A stretch of 64,000 nt of DNA from a virus (taxonomy: Duplodnaviria > Heunggongvirae > Uroviricota > Caudoviricetes): the IMG/VR virus record IMGVR_UViG_2718217859_000010; one strand, given 5' to 3'. Made by a program: the position numbers. Positions 1-15,000 of the stretch are shown here, in pieces (positions within the stretch are counted from its first letter, which is position 1; each line of letters opens with the position of its first letter).

Positions 1-3000
1 ATGCCTGCCCCCGTCGTCCTGATCCTTGCGGCCGGGCGTGGAGAGCGCTTTCTCGCCTTCGGGGGAAATACCCATAAGTGTATCGGCTGGCGTCAGTCCC
101 CGGAGGTTGCGCCTTATCGCTGGCCATTTGAAGAAAACGGGAGAACTTTCGACCTTGCGATTGAACCGCAGATTACGACTAATGATCTGCGTCTGATGTT
201 GCAGCTGGCTCTTGTCGGTGAAGGAATAACAATTGCCACTCAGGAAACTTTCAGGCCATATATTGAAAGCGGTAAGCTTGTATCGCTGCTTGATGACTTT
301 CTTCCACAATTTCCAGGCTTCTATCTGTATTTCCCACAGCGTCGCAATATTGCACCAAAGCTCCGCGCCCTGATTGACCACGTCAAGGAATGGCGGCAGC
401 AATTGGCTTAAATGTCTGCACCTGCATTGCCTGATGTCAGAACAGTATTTTGATGAATTGCCAGGGTTACAATGGCACAAATGCGGCACAGGAGGAAACG
501 TGGTGTATTTAAATATGGGGTAAGTCTTTGATTTTAATGGTGCCGATAATAGGAGTAAAACACTCGATTAATCTCGTGTTAATGCCATCACCTACGACCA
601 TTACTAATCGATTGAATCTTATAGAAAAATCATCATTTTCTATGCGTCACAATCAATTTTCACATTACAAACGCTCCGACACTTTAGCCGGAGATTTTAT
701 GAGATACAAGCCTAACCAATACTTAATCTGTGATTCTTACGGTAACTACTATTTAAGGATCACGCTGCCTGTGTATATGAAGCCCTTTTTTGAAGGAAAA
801 AGGACGTTTGTCAGAAGTCTACATACAAGTAATCTTCGTGTGGCACGTAGAAAGCGTGATCAGATTGCAGATGAATACCATTGCTTACGGGAGAGTGTTG
901 CCCCTGTAAACAGCACAATAGAAAACACGCTGGAACTGTTACGCAGTAAGGCTAAATACGCCAAAACAGCTACCAGAGTGCAAGATACAGCGTCTTCGTG
1001 TCCGTCATTGCTTAAAATTCTTGAAATCTACCTGACAATTAACAGCACGAAGAAGAAGCCAGCCACTTTAGCTAAGGCAAGAAAAGCGGTAGAGATGTTT
1101 CTCTCCTACCGTAAAAAGCCTGATATTGCATTGCAAGATGTAAGCCGCACCACTGTTACAGGCTGGATTGAACACATGCAAAAAACTCTTTCACAACAAT
1201 CAATTGCAAATTATATCAGCCCAATGGCCCAGCTATGGGAATTAGCTTCATCACGTTACCACGATGCGCCAGAAAGGGCGCTCTCCCCCTGGCGAGGGCA
1301 TAGGCTTGATGTGGCACAAAGTAGAGAGAGCTACGAGGCATTTTCTAACAAAGAGCTATTGCAGGTGTTGCAAGTATTTTCCGGTAATTCAGCAGAAAAC
1401 AAAGAAATGACGGCTTTGTGTCTTATCGGTTTATATACAGGTATGCGGATCAATGAGATAGCAAGTCTCACAATAGACGATGTGAAAGAGATCGAAGGTG
1501 TGCTGTGTTTTGAAATCACACAGGGAAAAACGAAAGCTGCGGCACGTCTTGTGCCTGTGCATAGCCTTATCACTCCATTGGTGTTATCTCTTCGTGAAAA
1601 GCCTCACAATGGCTTTTTGTTCTATCACGCCAGCATTACAGAGCGTGCTGACGGTAAACGCTCTACGTGGCATACACAACGATTTACAAGAGCTAAACGA
1701 AAGGCTTTAGGGGAAAAGGGAACAGAAAGGAAAGTGTTTCATTCTCTGAGACACGGAGTAGCACAGCTTCTTGATCGAAATCAAATTCCAGAGGACCGCA
1801 TAGCTTTAATGTTGGGCCATCAGCGCGGCAATACAGAAACATTCCGCACATATAGCAAGAATGCAGCTTCTCCAGTAGAGCTTAAAAAATATATTGAGCT
1901 TTTACGCTACCCTGAAATAGAGAAAGGCTTATCAATCAATAAAAAATCAAATTTAAGGCGTAAAACAACGCTATAGACGTAATAAAGAGGCTTCAATATA
2001 GACTGATGCCTCTTTTATGATTATCTCGTTACAGAGCGTTTCATAGGCGTTTAAGGCTATTGTTTAAATACTGGCGTTACAACGTCTTGCCCTGGGCTTT
2101 TTTGATTTTTCTGTTCTGTTGTATTTACCTGCATTTTAACCTGTCCCCCTACAGATTTATTTGGTGCTGTTTTTACCGCAATTGCGCTTGTAGTTGCTTT
2201 AGAGACAAGACGGATTTGCTCAAAATCAAGAGTAAACAATAGACTTTCGCTTGCTTCTTCTTCATAAGACATGCCAACTAACACAACGTTGTCATAATTT
2301 TTTAACTCAGTGACAAGTAGGAAAGGTTGGCGACTGTCCATCAACTGATTTAGGTATTCAAGCATAAGCATACGTCGATTGCCGTTAATTCCCGCATTCT
2401 TAATCATATCGGGATTGAGCTTCAATACGGTTTCAGAGATACGCCCCTGTAATGTGAACTTGTTATTCCGTATTTGAACATGATCACTAACTTCTGATCC
2501 TGATTCGACAGCATAGCTTGTAACGTCTGCATTTCTGCTAATTTTCGTCGATTCCACGCTATCAAATGATAATGCCTGGTAGTCATTGTAAGCAGCATTT
2601 GCACCACTGCCGAGGTTAGAGGCAATGATCGCAAAGCCGTTACCCCCTTTAGTTGTTCTACCGTTGCTATCGTTGCTTGTGCTGTTGATTTTCGCCTCAG
2701 TCGGGCGACCAATGGTTAACGGACCCATTGCCATAATTTGTAATCCTTATTTAAGGGGGCTAAACCGCCCCACAGTGATGATTAATAGGTTGACCCGCCT
2801 GACATAACACCCAGCGTTAATAGCTTGCTAAACTCAGCGGAGGATGCCTTTGATTTGAAGTCGATAAATTCGCTCAATCGTCCGGTGTCTGATTCGATAG
2901 TTAGCGGCACTTCTGCATTTACTTGTAATTCTGGATTGAAGTTAATAACAGGTGCAAAGGTGTAAGAAGGAGCCTTGAGAGCTTGTTGTGCTGCACTCTG

Positions 3001-12000: not shown

Positions 12001-15000
12001 TCTTCGCGTTAAACATTGATCACGTCTGCGCCGATTTCAGATAAAAAGGTAGCTATTAAGCAATACGTAACTTTTACAATTAGTGAAATTATCTAAAACA
12101 CAAGTTATATAGATGAGAAAATGAAACATTATCTTTAACAAATCAAACAAAACAACACATCATCTTGTTGACACCATACAAAGTGAATAGTAAACTATTA
12201 TATGTGAAAATTTGCATGTTGCGTGCAATAAAAAATAAATGATACTTTGCTATTGTTAAATCAATAGGGGGTATCTATGCGCTTTATCTCATCCATTTTA
12301 AAAACCTGCAGAACCACAATTACTTTAGCTGTAATTGTTACCATCATATACCTCATCTATTTTACCCCTCGAGATAAAATCGATTCACTAGCGATCATCG
12401 TTCATGCAATGGCTACATTAACTAAAAAACTTTAATAATTTCACTATCAGGCGCATAAACACATCTTTGATCGCTGGATGTGTTATGCGCCTACTGGTGA
12501 TTCAATCCTTAAGCCATTTCAACTCACTAAGGAGTTTTCTTTCTTCGTTCTCTCGCTGTTTACGCTCTAGCCAGGCTTTTCCCTCTGGCGTAGACAGGAA
12601 CTTACGAGCGTGAATCTTGCGGTTATTACGTTTGATAGCTGCAATGTTTTTCATCGTGTGCCTCTGTATTCATATGAAAATTAACAAGTTACATACTACA
12701 CAGGGAGACTACGCATAAAACACAATACAAGTAAAGATACATTTTCAAGACAATAGGAGCCATAAAGCGCCTTTGATGGTTATACCAAAAAATAAGCGCC
12801 GTAGGCGTATCCACTAAAAAGGGCTTTTTCACAAAAGCTATGAAGTCTTAGCAGTTCTTCTCTTATCAGGCACCCGTTGTACTCCGGTGGACGAAACCGT
12901 GCTAGAGCTTGATTCTTTCCCGATCAAGTTAGGTTTTGAAGAGGTGGGCTTTAATCCACTATTGCACTTAAAACTCTTCCCATCATTTAGCCTGTTTATC
13001 CTCTGCAACGTCTCACGACGTGTAGCATCATTGGACACCGCGCCAGGTGTGGAACATCTTGCTAAGAGTTTTGGTAGAAGGTTTAGAGACGGTGGCACGT
13101 CTTCCAGCTTCAAAGGAACTTGTTACGAGGTTGAGCCTGGGAACTACTCGCCCATACGTGTTACACTACCAAAGCCCATAACAACGTATAGGCGTTTGTA
13201 AGTGATAACAGAAGATACAATTTCTTAGAGAAGTTAAGCTAAGTTATTGATTTTCTTGATGGTGCCGATAATAGGAGTCGAACCTACGACCTTCGCATTA
13301 CGAATTATAAGAATCCGCTTCTAATTCAAAGTATTACCCCATCAACACTGCGCTCACACGTCCCACCACATCAAAACATGTAAAGCCTTGCAAGCCATTG
13401 TGAGGCCTTATGTGTCTCAGTTTTGTCCCACTACGACCTGCACAGCAAATAAGAAAATAGCGGTGATATCAAACAGTACAGAAATCTTTTTTCTTTCAAA
13501 TGGAGAAACTGATTAACCCGTTTAATTGTACTCCTCATGGGTAATGATAAGGCACAGGAACCAAATCACTATTATGAATTTAATTTCACTATAGTAAATT
13601 TGATAACTCGTTTTGTATCTCAAAACACAAGCAACGACCACTTTAAGGGAGATAACATGTTAAAAATCAGAATGTCGCGACCATCTGAAGCACAAGAAAT
13701 TATCCAAATTTGGAAAAATTCCGTGTAACCGGCTCATTTAAACCGTCTGGTCTGTTTCCTCCGGCTCTACAAAAATAATGTCCATCATTTTTAATGGACA
13801 CTATCGTATGAAACACCGGACCTGGATCACTGAAGCTTTACGTCTTCACTTTGAAGAACATTTACCCCGGGTTGTGGCCGGGCGTCGCCTGGGTGTACCA
13901 AAATCAACAGTTTGTAGTATGTTCGTGCGCTTTCGGAGAGCTGGCCTTTCGTGGCCTTTGCCCGCAGGCATGTCGGAGCAGGAACTTGATGCCTGCCTTT
14001 ACGGACAATTTTCCACGGTACCAGTCGTACGTCCTGAAAGCACCGTTATATCCGAAGCCCCCGTGGTAAAAAAACGTCCCCGGCGGCCCAACTTCCCTTA
14101 TGAGTTTAAAATCGCCTTAGTGGAGCAGTCACTGCAGCCCGGAGCCTGTGTGGCGCAGATCGCCCGGGAAAACGGAATCAACGATAACCTGCTCTTCAAC
14201 TGGCGCCATCAATACCGGAAAGGTGGCCTGCTGCCTTCCGGAAAAAATATGCCGGCACTGCTTCCCGTGACGTTAACGCCGGAGCCGGATAATAAAATCC
14301 CGGCCCCCGCACAGGAACCAGAGCAGATAAATACACCGTCCGACAGTCTGTGTTGTGAGCTGGTTCTGCCGGCCGGAACTCTCAGGCTTAAAGGTAAACT
14401 GACGCCGGCGTTATTACAGACACTTATCCGCGAAATAAAAGGGAGCAGCCACTGATGATATCTCTCCCTGCAGGTTCGCGTATCTGGCTGGTTGCAGGTA
14501 TCACCGATATGCGAAATGGCTTTAACGGCCTGGCATCAAAAGTTCAGAACGTCCTGAAGGATGACCCGTTCTCCGGACACCTGTTCATCTTCCGCGGACG
14601 CCGGGGTGACCAGATAAAAGTGTTGTGGGCTGACAGTGACGGACTGTGCCTCTTCACCAAACGCCTGGAGCGGGGCCGCTTCGTCTGGCCAGTCACCCGT
14701 GACGGCAAGGTGCACCTTACTCCGGCTCAGTTATCCATGCTTCTTGAAGGTATCAACTGGAAGCACCCGAAACGAACGGAACGCGCTGGAATCCGCATAT
14801 AACCCGTTGTAAAGTGAGGATATGGACACCTCACTTGCTCATGAGAACGCCCGCCTGCGGGCACTGTTGCAGACGCAACAGGACACCATCCGCCAGATGG
14901 CTGAATACAACCGCCTGCTCTCACAGCGGGTGGCGGCTTATGCTTCCGAAATCAACCGGCTGAAGGCGCTGGTTGCGAAACTGCAACGTATGCAGTTCGG

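What the first reader, a model, noticed from the sequence alone, without database searches (positions are those of the whole stretch)
538..13305. Direct copies of the tRNA-Thr 3' end delimit the left element, but no intact tRNA is present
A 19-bp copy (538-556) and a 46-bp copy (13260-13305) of the tRNA-Thr 3' end are in direct orientation 12.7 kb apart, with the integrase next to the short copy and a LysR fragment just outside. Neither copy extends into the 5' half of the tRNA. This pattern suggests tandem or nested site-specific integrations at tRNA-Thr, with the intact gene lying outside the window.
Basis: partly seen in the sequence, partly recalled or inferred. Interest (0 to 1): 0.45.

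Follow-up and report, generated by a model that had tools for sequence, protein, structure and literature searches.

The report
Two mobile elements stacked at thrW
The two partial tRNA-Thr copies are the junction scars of two different mobile elements inserted side by side into the E. coli thrW tRNA gene; this arrangement is well known and ordinary, although the small left-hand element looks like an undescribed phage satellite.

Summary
Positions 538-556 (19 bp) and 13260-13305 (46 bp) are exact reverse-complement copies of the 3' end of E. coli thrW, tRNA-Thr(CGU). The window holds no intact tRNA.

The locus is the paoD/yagP'–thrW–proA integration hot spot.
- **46-bp copy:** it is letter for letter the published att core of Shigella phages SfI/SfII/SfV/SfX and P22. 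The phage P' arm follows it (97-98% identical to SfI attP). It is the distal junction (attR) of a lambdoid prophage more than 50 kb long.
- **Prophage integrase:** its SfI-type integrase (98.8% aa identity) is cut by the window end. By synteny with strain N96 (99.9% identity), the intact thrW lies about 100 bp beyond position 64000.
- **19-bp copy:** together with the first 19 bp of the 46-bp copy, it bounds a separate 12.7-kb element, E1, which has its own unrelated integrase.

Complete E. coli genomes show the empty site (948 genomes), E1 alone, the prophage alone, and the exact tandem junction (31 genomes). Tandem arrays at thrW are already published (O157 Sakai Sp1/Sp2; SfX+SfI lysogens), so the finding is real but ordinary.

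In passing: E1 belongs to a conserved family of about 13-kb elements under purifying selection. They carry homologues of the capsid, tape-measure and baseplate genes of virulent Stephanstirmvirinae phages, so E1 may be a new kind of satellite.

The parts
1..411 (+). Chromosomal left flank: the last 22 nt of paoD (1-22) and the LysR-family fragment yagP' (73-411).
   Evidence: Annotation of the syntenic regions in RM14721, cM8a and K-12. 97.5% identical to K-12.
498..537 (.). Native downstream flank of thrW (ACGTGGTGTATTTAAATATGGGGTAAGTCTTTGATTTTAA). In unoccupied genomes it directly abuts the intact tRNA.
   Evidence: The same 40 nt precede the tRNA fragment in RM14721, cM8a, K-12 and 09-00049. 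The empty-site reconstruction is found in 948 genomes.
538..556 (-). The 19-bp displaced 3' end of thrW (tRNA nt 58-76). This is the thrW-distal junction (attR) of element E1.
557..13259 (.). Element E1: 12.7 kb, 35-48% GC in 1-kb windows (mostly 35-43%), integrative and phage-satellite-like.
   Evidence: It sits between the 19-bp copy and an intact thrW in RM14721 and cM8a. Composition. The family is conserved.
699..1976 (+). E1 tyrosine integrase, 425 aa, with domains DUF6538 + SAM-like + catalytic.
   Evidence: Pfam and PHROG hits. Only 24% identical to K-12 IntF and unrelated to the prophage Int. Present in 416-470 of 5426 E. coli genomes.
2057..2734 (-). Dit-like tail/baseplate protein, 225 aa.
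   Evidence: PF21821 at 1.6e-27. 49% aa identity to the gene directly after the tape-measure gene of Phapecoctavirus phiWec188.
2782..4623 (-). Tape-measure-like protein, 613 aa.
   Evidence: PHROG 16051 at 3e-30. 30% identity over the C-terminal 383 aa and 50% over the N-terminal 34 aa to the phiWec188 tape-measure protein. dN/dS 0.19.
5010..6038 (-). Major capsid protein, 342 aa, lambda gpE-type fold family.
   Evidence: PF03864 and PHROG 29. Homologues of 342-345 aa occur across Enterobacterales. dN/dS 0.12-0.19.
8956..9801 (-). A 208-aa HTH protein resembling replication initiators (8956-9582) and a 55-aa ORF (9634-9801). DNA at about 9245-9813 is 95.7-98.3% identical to virulent phages inny and muut.
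   Evidence: PHROG replication-initiator hits. DNA patches found (query offset 556). tblastn gives 98% to inny_185.
10777..10893 (.). AT-rich stretch followed by a perfect 22-bp tandem repeat (x2.4) inside an ORF-free 1.4 kb. Putative origin of replication of E1.
   Evidence: TRF result and the sequence itself. The K. pneumoniae relative has 32-bp iteron arrays at the equivalent place.
11394..11951 (+). Serine DNA invertase or resolvase, 185 aa. It is a variable accessory gene of E1.
   Evidence: PF00239 at 8.9e-39 and PHROG 125. Absent or replaced in other family members.
13260..13278 (-). thrW-proximal copy of the E1 19-bp core (attL of E1). It lies inside the 46-bp segment.
13260..13305 (-). 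The 46-bp att core of SfI/SfII/SfV/SfX/P22-type integrases (tRNA nt 31-76). This is attR of the lambdoid prophage.
   Evidence: Identical to the attP core annotated in SfI JX509734 and to the 46-base core printed in PMC3636060. The same junction is found in Sakai Sp1, N96, 09-00049 and GPEC617.
13306..13430 (.). Phage-derived P' arm of attR.
   Evidence: Window 13260-13430 is 97-98% identical to the attP regions of SfI, SfII, SfIV and SfV, and about 83% to P22-like phages. Core plus arm is present in 1210 of 5426 E. coli genomes.
13725..16423 (+). ISCro1-like IS66-family insertion sequence, 2699 bp (tnpA 13778-14455, tnpB 14455-14802, transposase 14822-16393). It has an 8-bp target duplication and interrupts a prophage acetyltransferase gene that starts at 13657.
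   Evidence: BLAST against 09-00049, which lacks the IS, and against N96. Annotations.
13306..64000 (.). Lambdoid prophage, running off the right end of the window. It carries cargo genes (ompT-like 17908-18861, hydrolase 19048-20532), tail genes (21233-~36000), head and terminase genes (~36000-43600), then lysis, Q, Rha, repressor (59011-59664) and yfdPQRST-like early genes.
   Evidence: ORF list. 96-99.9% identical to the thrW prophage of N96.
62697..63047 (+). Putative excisionase of the prophage. It overlaps the start of int, as in SfI.
   Evidence: Synteny with N96 and SfI xis. Weak hit to the TIGR01764 excisionase domain, 1.8e-5, below the curated cut-off.
62969..64000 (+). Prophage tyrosine integrase. 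344 of 372 codons are present; the gene is cut by the window end.
   Evidence: Translation. 98.8% aa identity to SfI Int and 100% to N96 Int. In N96 the gene ends 14 bp before an intact thrW.

Best explanation
The window is the E. coli paoD/yagP'-thrW-proA integration hot spot, carrying two unrelated integrative elements in tandem. Each was inserted by its own tyrosine integrase into the 3' end of the tRNA-Thr(CGU) gene thrW. thrW reads right to left and lies just past the right end of the window.

(1) A lambdoid prophage (13306 to beyond 64000) carries an SfI/SfV/P22-type integrase. That integrase recombines a 46-bp core shared by attP and thrW. Integration rebuilds an intact thrW next to int (attL, predicted at about 64102-64177). 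It leaves the displaced 46-bp 3' end plus the phage P' arm at the far side (attR, 13260-13430).

(2) E1 (557-13259) carries a different integrase (699-1976) whose attP shares only the last 19 bp of the tRNA. Its two junctions are 13260-13278 (thrW-proximal) and 538-556 (distal, still attached to the native thrW downstream flank and yagP').

Because the 19-bp core sits inside the 46-bp core, a single 46-bp segment serves as the right junction of E1 and the left junction of the prophage.

Shown: the identity of both repeats, the identity of the 46-bp core and arm to a characterised attP, the integrase identities, and the existence of the empty, singly occupied and doubly occupied states in other genomes. 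Inferred: the position of the intact thrW, present-day excision competence, and the order of insertion. E1 first and then the phage into the rebuilt thrW gives exactly the same structure as the phage first and then E1 into the 46-bp remnant.
For: - Both repeats match thrW exactly, and far beyond chance.
- The 46-bp copy equals the annotated SfI attP core and the 46-base core printed in PMC3636060.
- The adjoining 125 bp are 97-98% identical to the SfI/SfII/SfIV/SfV attP arm.
- The integrase at 62969-64000 is 98.8% identical to SfI Int, and xis is syntenic.
- Window 59937-64000 is 99.9% identical to N96, where int is followed 14 bp later by thrW-proA. The same int-thrW-proA arrangement is seen in GPEC617 and Sakai.
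- E1 lies between the 19-bp copy and an intact thrW in RM14721 and cM8a.
- In 09-00049 the prophage alone sits on the native flank, followed by the 46-bp core and the P' arm.
- The reconstructed empty site exists in 948 of 5426 genomes.
- The exact E1-end/46-bp/P'-arm junction exists in 31 of 5426 genomes and in IMG/VR loci L018, L019 and L022.
- Published precedents: SfI integrating beside SfX at thrW (PMC3306764) and Sakai Sp1-Sp2 in tandem at thrW.
Against: - The intact thrW and the last 28 codons of int are not in the window, so their presence rests on synteny.
- No excised or circular form of E1 was found. The predicted E1 attP junction 38-mer has no exact match in the viral, metagenome or genome collections.
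- No excisionase was recognised in E1.
- The prophage carries an IS66-family insertion, so it may not be fully functional.
- The order of the two insertions is undetermined.
Confidence: 0.9

Rival explanations
1. The repeats are fossil scars only. One or both elements are fixed, degraded remnants that can no longer excise, so the copies are not recombination-competent att sites today.
For: - No attP junction of E1 was found in any collection.
- No recognisable excisionase is present in E1.
- E1 lacks a terminase and a portal.
- The prophage has an IS66 insertion in a cargo gene.
- Many thrW islands, such as K-12 CP4-6 and Sakai Sp1, are known remnants.
Against: - Both integrase ORFs are intact where visible, and both are identical or near-identical to copies in many genomes.
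- Both cores and the P' arm are uninterrupted. The IS lies 420 bp from the core, outside the stretch homologous to SfI attP.
- The empty, E1-only, phage-only and double states all exist with precise junctions.
- E1 genes are under purifying selection.
Confidence: 0.25
2. The left element is simply a decayed prophage remnant, the same thing as K-12 CP4-6. It has no biology of its own and was inherited vertically at this locus.
For: - It occupies the same chromosomal slot, with the same yagP' flank, as CP4-6.
- It has a capsid gene but no terminase or portal.
- About 3.7 kb of it is ORF-free.
Against: - There is no DNA similarity to CP4-6 beyond the 556-bp chromosomal flank. The integrase is only 24% identical to IntF, and the repeat is 19 bp rather than 49 bp.
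- The same gene order and a size of 12.5-13.9 kb recur in E. coli variants, in K. pneumoniae (in tRNA-Gly, with a 27-bp repeat) and in Serratia, at 30-74% aa identity with intact ORFs of constant length.
- dN/dS is 0.12-0.19.
- Part of the ORF-free DNA looks like an iteron origin.
Confidence: 0.15
3. The two copies are a chance repeat or an assembly chimera.
For: None beyond the short length (19 bp) of the shared segment.
Against: The chance expectation is 0.01 per window. Both copies extend in register with thrW. The identical junctions are found in dozens of independently finished genomes.
Confidence: 0.01

Closest known systems
attP/attB system of Shigella serotype-converting phages SfI, SfII, SfV and SfX, and of Salmonella P22 (46-bp core in tRNA-thrW)
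   Same: The 46-bp core is identical. The P' arm is 97-98% identical and the integrase is 98.8% identical to SfI. xis overlaps int, and int lies next to the att site and thrW.
   Different: The prophage body is a lambda-like siphovirus-type genome carrying ompT-like, hydrolase and acetyltransferase cargo. It is not a gtrABC serotype-converting phage. Only the int-att module is shared.
E. coli O157:H7 Sakai prophages Sp1 (lambda-like) and Sp2 (P4-like) in tandem at thrW
   Same: The order is thrW - SfI-type int - lambdoid element - 46-bp attR with the same P' arm - second integrative element - yagP.
   Different: In Sakai the second element is a P4-like satellite with a different integrase (IntS), Sp1 is a 10.6-kb remnant with a pseudogenised int, and yagP is full length.
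Experimental SfX + SfI double lysogens of Shigella flexneri (PMC3306764)
   Same: [quoted passage not shown]
   Different: Both of those phages use the same 46-bp core and the same integrase type. Here the two elements use different integrases and nested cores of 19 and 46 bp.
E. coli K-12 cryptic prophage CP4-6 (thrW ... intF - thrW 3' fragment - yagP)
   Same: Same chromosomal slot, same native flank, and an integrase next to a displaced thrW 3' fragment beside yagP'.
   Different: The K-12 fragment is 49 bp, not 19 bp. IntF is only 24% identical to the E1 integrase, and there is no DNA similarity between the element bodies.
Phage satellites (P4-like, PICI, capsid-forming PICI, PLE, PICMI), as a comparison for E1 only
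   Same: Size of about 13 kb, a tRNA-targeting integrase, its own replication-initiator-like gene and iteron-like origin, some virion genes but no complete virion module, and sequence ties to one specific phage group.
   Different: No hallmark genes of any described family were detected: no psu/delta/sid/alpha, alpA/pri-rep, terS/portal/protease, or PLE genes. E1 encodes a tape-measure-like and a Dit-like protein, which I do not know from any described satellite (my own knowledge, plus negative literature searches).

Membership tests
SfI/SfV/P22-type thrW att site (right-hand, 46-bp copy) | A 46-bp core identical to nt 31-76 of tRNA-thrW. | tested here: met
   46/46 identity to thrW, to the attP core annotated in SfI and to the core printed in PMC3636060.
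SfI/SfV/P22-type thrW att site (right-hand, 46-bp copy) | The core is flanked by a phage-derived arm homologous to a characterised attP. | tested here: met
   Window 13260-13430 is 97-98% identical to the SfI, SfII, SfIV and SfV attP regions.
SfI/SfV/P22-type thrW att site (right-hand, 46-bp copy) | A cognate integrase (and xis) at the opposite end of the prophage. | tested here: met
   Int 62969-64000 is 98.8% aa identical to SfI Int. An xis-like ORF overlaps its start, as in SfI.
SfI/SfV/P22-type thrW att site (right-hand, 46-bp copy) | An intact thrW rebuilt next to int (attL). | not testable with these tools
   It lies beyond the window end. It is predicted at about 64102-64177 from 99.9% identity to N96, where int-thrW-proA is contiguous.
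tRNA-targeting tyrosine-integrase island (E1, 19-bp repeats) | Direct repeats equal to the 3' end of the target tRNA bound the element. | tested here: met
   538-556 and 13260-13278. In RM14721 and cM8a the proximal repeat is part of an intact thrW.
tRNA-targeting tyrosine-integrase island (E1, 19-bp repeats) | An integrase gene at one end, next to a repeat. | tested here: met
   A 425-aa Phage_integrase ORF lies 143 bp from the distal repeat.
tRNA-targeting tyrosine-integrase island (E1, 19-bp repeats) | Unoccupied target sites exist with a precise junction. | tested here: met
   Native flank + intact thrW + proA is contiguous in 948 of 5426 genomes. In 09-00049 E1 is absent while the prophage is present.
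tRNA-targeting tyrosine-integrase island (E1, 19-bp repeats) | Excision to a circular form carrying attP. | tested here: inconclusive
   The predicted attP 38-mer has no exact match in the viral, metagenome or species-representative genome collections. Assemblies rarely capture such forms, so the absence carries little weight.
K-12 CP4-6 prophage | An IntF-type integrase and a CP4-6 gene set. | tested here: not met
   24% aa identity over the catalytic domain only. No DNA similarity past the chromosomal flank. The repeat is 19 bp rather than 49 bp.
Described phage-satellite families (P4-like, PICI, cf-PICI, PLE) | The family's hallmark gene set: P4 psu/delta/sid/alpha; PICI alpA + pri-rep; cf-PICI terS + portal + protease + capsid + connectors. 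| tested here: not met
   Pfam, PHROG and NCBIfam scans of E1 ORFs find only an integrase, a Dit-like protein, a tape-measure-like protein, a capsid protein, an HTH/replication-initiator-like protein and an invertase.
Described phage-satellite families (P4-like, PICI, cf-PICI, PLE) | Helper-phage-dependent induction, packaging and transfer. | not testable with these tools
   This needs infection experiments. Only indirect sequence ties to Stephanstirmvirinae phages are available.

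The most novel reading that the evidence does not exclude
The left element E1 (557-13259) may belong to an undescribed family of phage satellites, or anti-phage parasites, of about 13 kb in Enterobacterales that exploit large virulent myoviruses of the Stephanstirmvirinae (phAPEC8/rV5-like) group.

E1 encodes its own capsid protein, a tape-measure-like protein and a Dit-like baseplate protein. These are collinear with, and 25-49% identical to, the helper's genes. It also has a replication-initiator-like gene, an iteron-type origin and a tRNA-targeting integrase. 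It has no terminase or portal.

On infection it would excise through the 19-bp sites, replicate, and either build small or altered particles for itself or poison helper assembly.

Support:
- The family keeps its architecture and size across E. coli, Klebsiella (in tRNA-Gly) and Serratia.
- dN/dS is 0.12-0.19.
- A patch 95.7-98.3% identical in DNA to phages inny and muut implies recent exchange with that phage group.
- Six full-text literature searches found no description of such an element.
Probability: 0.4. Interest if true: 0.65.

Novelty: new member of a known kind. Interest (0 to 1): 0.2.

Why it matters
For the finding as stated, the value is mostly bookkeeping. It fixes the exact borders of two mobile elements. 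It explains why no tRNA is seen: the gene lies about 100 bp beyond the window. It also shows that one 46-bp segment is shared as a junction by two integrase systems with nested cores, a tidy example of how tRNA hot spots accumulate arrays. None of this would surprise a specialist, because thrW arrays and the 46-bp core are published.

The part worth a follow-up is the left element. If it is a satellite of virulent Stephanstirmvirinae phages that encodes its own capsid and tape-measure homologues, it would add a new satellite type in E. coli and Klebsiella. That would bear on therapy with phAPEC8-like phages: its integrase is present in about 8% of complete E. coli genomes.

Tried and rejected
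- **Chance repeat.** Rejected by shuffles.
- **E1 = K-12 CP4-6, with its integrase = IntF.** Rejected: 24% identity, no DNA similarity, and a 49-bp rather than a 19-bp scar.
- **Nested insertion, one element inside the other.** Rejected. The elements abut at 13260-13305, and each occurs alone in other genomes.
- **Finding the source genome.** No complete E. coli genome in the collection holds the whole arrangement at 100%. The best partial matches are cM8a for E1 (99.6%) and N96 for the prophage.
- **Circular or excised E1.** Exact 38-mer searches in three collections all returned nothing.
- **IS66 inverted repeats by repeat search.** Uninformative. The IS limits came instead from comparison with an IS-free genome.
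- **Rfam at E<=1 over 1-14000.** Nothing found; the tRNA fragments are too short to score.
- **PADLOC scan of E1 proteins.** No defence system. The only hits were weak HTH matches to CasR/Csa3-type regulators for the 208-aa protein, which I regard as generic wHTH similarity.
- **PHROG scan of ten small E1 ORFs.** No significant hits.
- **Literature searches.** Six searches: satellites tied to Phapecoctavirus, Stephanstirmvirinae, rV5, phAPEC8 and Justusliebigvirus, plus one for new satellite families in Enterobacteriaceae. Nothing relevant.
- **Order of the two insertions.** Both orders predict the identical structure, so I could not decide.

Full report
**Observation.** Position 538-556 reads TGGTGCCGATAATAGGAGT, and 13260-13305 reads the same 19 nt followed by CGAACCTACGACCTTCGCATTACGAAT. 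Both are the reverse complement of the 3' end of E. coli thrW, tRNA-Thr(CGU), so the tRNA would be read right to left. Compared base by base with the annotated 76-nt thrW of strain RM14721, they match for exactly 19 and 46 nt counted from the CCA end, i.e. tRNA positions 58-76 and 31-76. The 19-mer occurs exactly twice in the 64 kb even with three mismatches allowed. The chance expectation is 0.01. The 27-nt extension occurs once. ARAGORN finds no tRNA gene in the window, and Rfam finds none either. An intact 425-aa tyrosine integrase starts 143 bp from the short copy, and a LysR substrate-binding-domain fragment lies at 73-411.

**Where this is.** The left 556 bp are the end of paoD, the yagP' LysR fragment and a 40-nt stretch. 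In other E. coli genomes that stretch is the native downstream flank of thrW. I joined this flank directly to an intact thrW and the proA side, and searched complete E. coli genomes. The reconstructed empty site is present as one contiguous piece, at 99-99.8% identity in the listed top hits, in 948 of 5426 genomes. Everything in the window to the right of 556 is therefore inserted DNA relative to a common, precisely defined empty site. thrW is a recognised integration hot spot (PMC7545054).

**The 46-bp copy.** Window 13260-13430 is 97-98% identical to the attP regions of Shigella phages SfI, SfII, SfIV and SfV, and about 83% to P22-like phages. In the SfI record the attP core is annotated as a 46-bp feature that aligns exactly with 13260-13305. 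The SfI genome paper prints the same 46 bases and states that they are shared by SfII, SfV, SfX and P22 (PMC3636060). So 13260-13305 is that core and 13306-13430 is the phage P' arm; together they form an attR.

The DNA from 13306 to the window end is a lambdoid prophage. It carries cargo genes, tail, head, lysis, Q, Rha, repressor and early genes, and is 96-99.9% identical to a prophage of strain N96. Its last gene, starting at 62969, is a tyrosine integrase cut by the window end after 344 codons. It is 98.8% identical to SfI Int and 100% identical to the N96 protein, and an xis-like ORF overlaps its start as in SfI. In N96 the integrase stops 14 bp before an intact thrW followed by proA. Because window 59937-64000 is 99.9% identical to that region, the intact thrW is predicted at window-equivalent 64102-64177, about 100 bp outside the window. 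The same int-thrW-proA arrangement is seen in GPEC617 and O157 Sakai. This step is inferred, not seen.

**The 19-bp copy and the left element (E1).** In RM14721 and cM8a the same 12.7-kb element, 97-99.6% identical, lies between the 19-bp copy and an intact thrW-proA. E1's own junctions are therefore 538-556 and the first 19 bp of the 46-bp segment (13260-13278). The identity continues imperfectly for a few bases on each side: 28 nt at 89%. About 20 nt downstream of the CCA end are also similar (GTAACnnnTTGATTTTAA-like) in the native flank and in the attP-derived flanks of SfI, the N96 phage and CP4-6; E1's own attP-derived flank matches only loosely (CTAAGTTATTGATTTTCTTGA, with a 3-nt insertion).

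E1's integrase is unrelated to the prophage integrase and only 24% identical to K-12 IntF. K-12 leaves a 49-bp fragment at the same spot, and there is no DNA similarity between E1 and CP4-6. At least three integrase lineages therefore use the thrW 3' end with nested cores of 19, 46 and 49 bp. In strain 09-00049 the prophage is present without E1, and its attR sits directly on the native flank.

The population of finished genomes thus holds all four states with precise junctions:
- the empty site, in 948 genomes;
- E1 alone;
- the prophage alone;
- both elements, with the exact E1-end/46-bp/P'-arm junction in 31 genomes, plus IMG/VR loci L018, L019 and L022.

The E1 integrase gene is in 416-470 genomes. 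The 46-bp + P' arm junction is in 1210 genomes.

**Mechanism.** Each element integrated by tyrosine-recombinase exchange between its attP and the tRNA 3' end. The attP copy rebuilds the tRNA, and the displaced chromosomal 3' end is left at the far junction. Because the 19-bp core lies inside the 46-bp core, one 46-bp segment now serves as the thrW-proximal junction of E1 and the thrW-distal junction of the prophage. The array is tandem, not nested. Two orders of events give exactly this structure:
- E1 first, then the phage into the rebuilt thrW. This is the canonical route, as when SfI entered beside SfX (PMC3306764).
- The phage first, then E1 into the 46-bp remnant, which still carries the native flank.

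I could not discriminate between them. Present-day excision is inferred from intact integrases and uninterrupted sites. The IS66-family element at 13725-16423 has an 8-bp duplication, interrupts an acetyltransferase gene, and lies outside the attP-homologous stretch. No circular E1 junction was found in three sequence collections, which is only weak negative evidence.

**Comparison with what is known.** O157:H7 Sakai has thrW, an SfI-type int (pseudogene), lambdoid Sp1, the same 46-bp attR with the same arm, then the P4-like Sp2 and yagP. That is the same architecture with a different second element. Tandem thrW lysogens have been made experimentally in Shigella. K-12 CP4-6 occupies the same slot. 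The finding is therefore a further instance of a known kind. What is new is only the particular pair and E1's 19-bp site.

**What E1 is (a side result).** E1 is AT-rich, mostly 35-43% GC with a peak of 48% over the capsid gene. It encodes:
- the integrase;
- a Dit-like protein;
- a 613-aa tape-measure-like protein;
- a gpE-type major capsid protein;
- a conserved 124-aa protein;
- several small ORFs without matches;
- a 208-aa HTH protein resembling replication initiators;
- a serine invertase.

It has no terminase or portal. It has no PADLOC hits other than weak generic HTH matches for the 208-aa protein, and no match as a free phage. A perfect 22-bp tandem repeat next to an AT-rich tract in a 1.4-kb ORF-free stretch looks like an iteron origin.

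Its closest phage relatives are the roughly 145-150-kb virulent myoviruses of the Stephanstirmvirinae (Phapecoctavirus, Justusliebigvirus):
- the capsid protein is 25% identical over its full length;
- the tape-measure-like protein is 30% identical over the C-terminal 383 aa and 50% over the N-terminal 34 aa;
- the Dit-like protein is 49% identical to the gene that immediately follows the tape-measure gene in phiWec188, so the order is collinear;
- window ~9245-9813 is 95.7-98.3% identical in DNA to phages inny and muut, covering a 55-aa ORF that is 98% identical to inny_185.

Relatives with the same gene order and a size of 12.5-13.9 kb occur in other E. coli (capsid 59-74% identical; some with the same integrase, some with a different one), in K. 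pneumoniae and in Serratia. The K. pneumoniae element sits in tRNA-Gly(CCC), is bounded by a 27-bp repeat and carries iteron arrays. ORF lengths are constant, and dN/dS is 0.12-0.19 wherever synonymous sites are not saturated. This is not how a decaying prophage looks. It fits a functional, mobile, helper-dependent element. None of the hallmark genes of P4-like elements, PICIs, capsid-forming PICIs or PLEs was found, and six literature searches gave no description. I rate the satellite or parasite reading at about 0.4. It is inference from sequence only.

**Verdict.** As a finding it is ordinary (interest 0.2). The left element deserves a separate look.

Noticed in passing
window 557-13259 (E1); loci L015-L025: E1 belongs to a conserved family of 12.5-13.9-kb integrative elements in E. 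coli, Klebsiella and Serratia. The shared gene order is integrase, (Dit-like), tape-measure-like, small ORF, capsid, and a protein of about 120 aa. There is no terminase or portal. dN/dS is 0.12-0.19. The capsid, tape-measure-like and Dit-like proteins are 25-49% identical to, and collinear with, those of virulent Stephanstirmvirinae phages. This may be a new satellite family.
   Followed up: partly
window ~9245-9813: This DNA is 95.7-98.3% identical to the virulent phages inny (Justusliebigvirus) and muut. It covers a 55-aa ORF (9634-9801, 98% aa identity to inny_185) and the N-terminus of the 208-aa HTH protein. That implies recent exchange between E1 and this phage group.
   Followed up: partly
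window 10777-10893: An AT-rich tract followed by a perfect 22-bp tandem repeat (TGACCTACCCCCTAGCTCACAG, x2.4) in a 1.4-kb ORF-free stretch of E1, which looks like an iteron-type origin. The K. pneumoniae relative L023 has 32-bp iteron arrays at 5138-5403.
   Followed up: partly
window 10812-10836 and 12311-12335: Imperfect inverted repeats (25 nt, 72% complementary) bracket the serine invertase gene (11394-11951). This may be an invertible segment. The match is weak and was not examined further.
   Followed up: no
window 13725-16423: An ISCro1-like IS66-family element, 2699 bp with an 8-bp target duplication, splits a prophage acetyltransferase gene that starts at 13657. A 100% identical copy sits at a different position, just outside the prophage attR, in strain N96.
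   Followed up: yes
window 518-537 and 13237-13259; L004 15255-15274; L007 2481-2500: About 20 nt immediately downstream of the tRNA CCA end are similar (GTAACnnnTTGATTTTAA-like) in the native chromosomal flank and in the attP-derived flanks of SfI, the N96 prophage and CP4-6; E1's attP-derived flank (13237-13259, CTAAGTTATTGATTTTCTTGA) resembles the motif only loosely, with a 3-nt insertion. The functional att identity probably extends beyond the tRNA end.
   Followed up: partly
window 57561-57648 and 57673-57749: A C4 antisense RNA (83.6 bits) and an isrK Hfq-binding RNA (67 bits) lie side by side on the minus strand, within the Rha-family regulator gene (56958-58109) of the prophage. This resembles a P1/P7-type antirepressor control module inside a lambdoid prophage.
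   Followed up: no
window 49736-49953 and 20795-20992: Rfam hits above gathering score within the prophage: sRNA STnc100 (163.8 bits) and IS009 (120.6 bits).
   Followed up: no
L008 (strain GPEC617), L011 (Sakai), L003 (N96): The slot between yagP' and the SfI-type attR holds different elements in different strains: a P4-like satellite with a primase plus a DUF4435/AAA pair in GPEC617, the P4-like Sp2 in Sakai, and an AbiE toxin-antitoxin island in N96. GPEC617 shares the last 480 bp of E1 (window 12778-13259) at 99.8% although the rest of its element is unrelated.
   Followed up: partly
L020 (IMG/VR metagenome contig), positions 1562 and 15378: A divergent E1 relative (capsid 59%, integrase 55% identical) is bounded by two 19-bp thrW fragments 13.8 kb apart. 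Yet another element lies beyond it, and its junction shares 24 nt with window 538-561. This looks like a further tandem array at thrW.
   Followed up: partly
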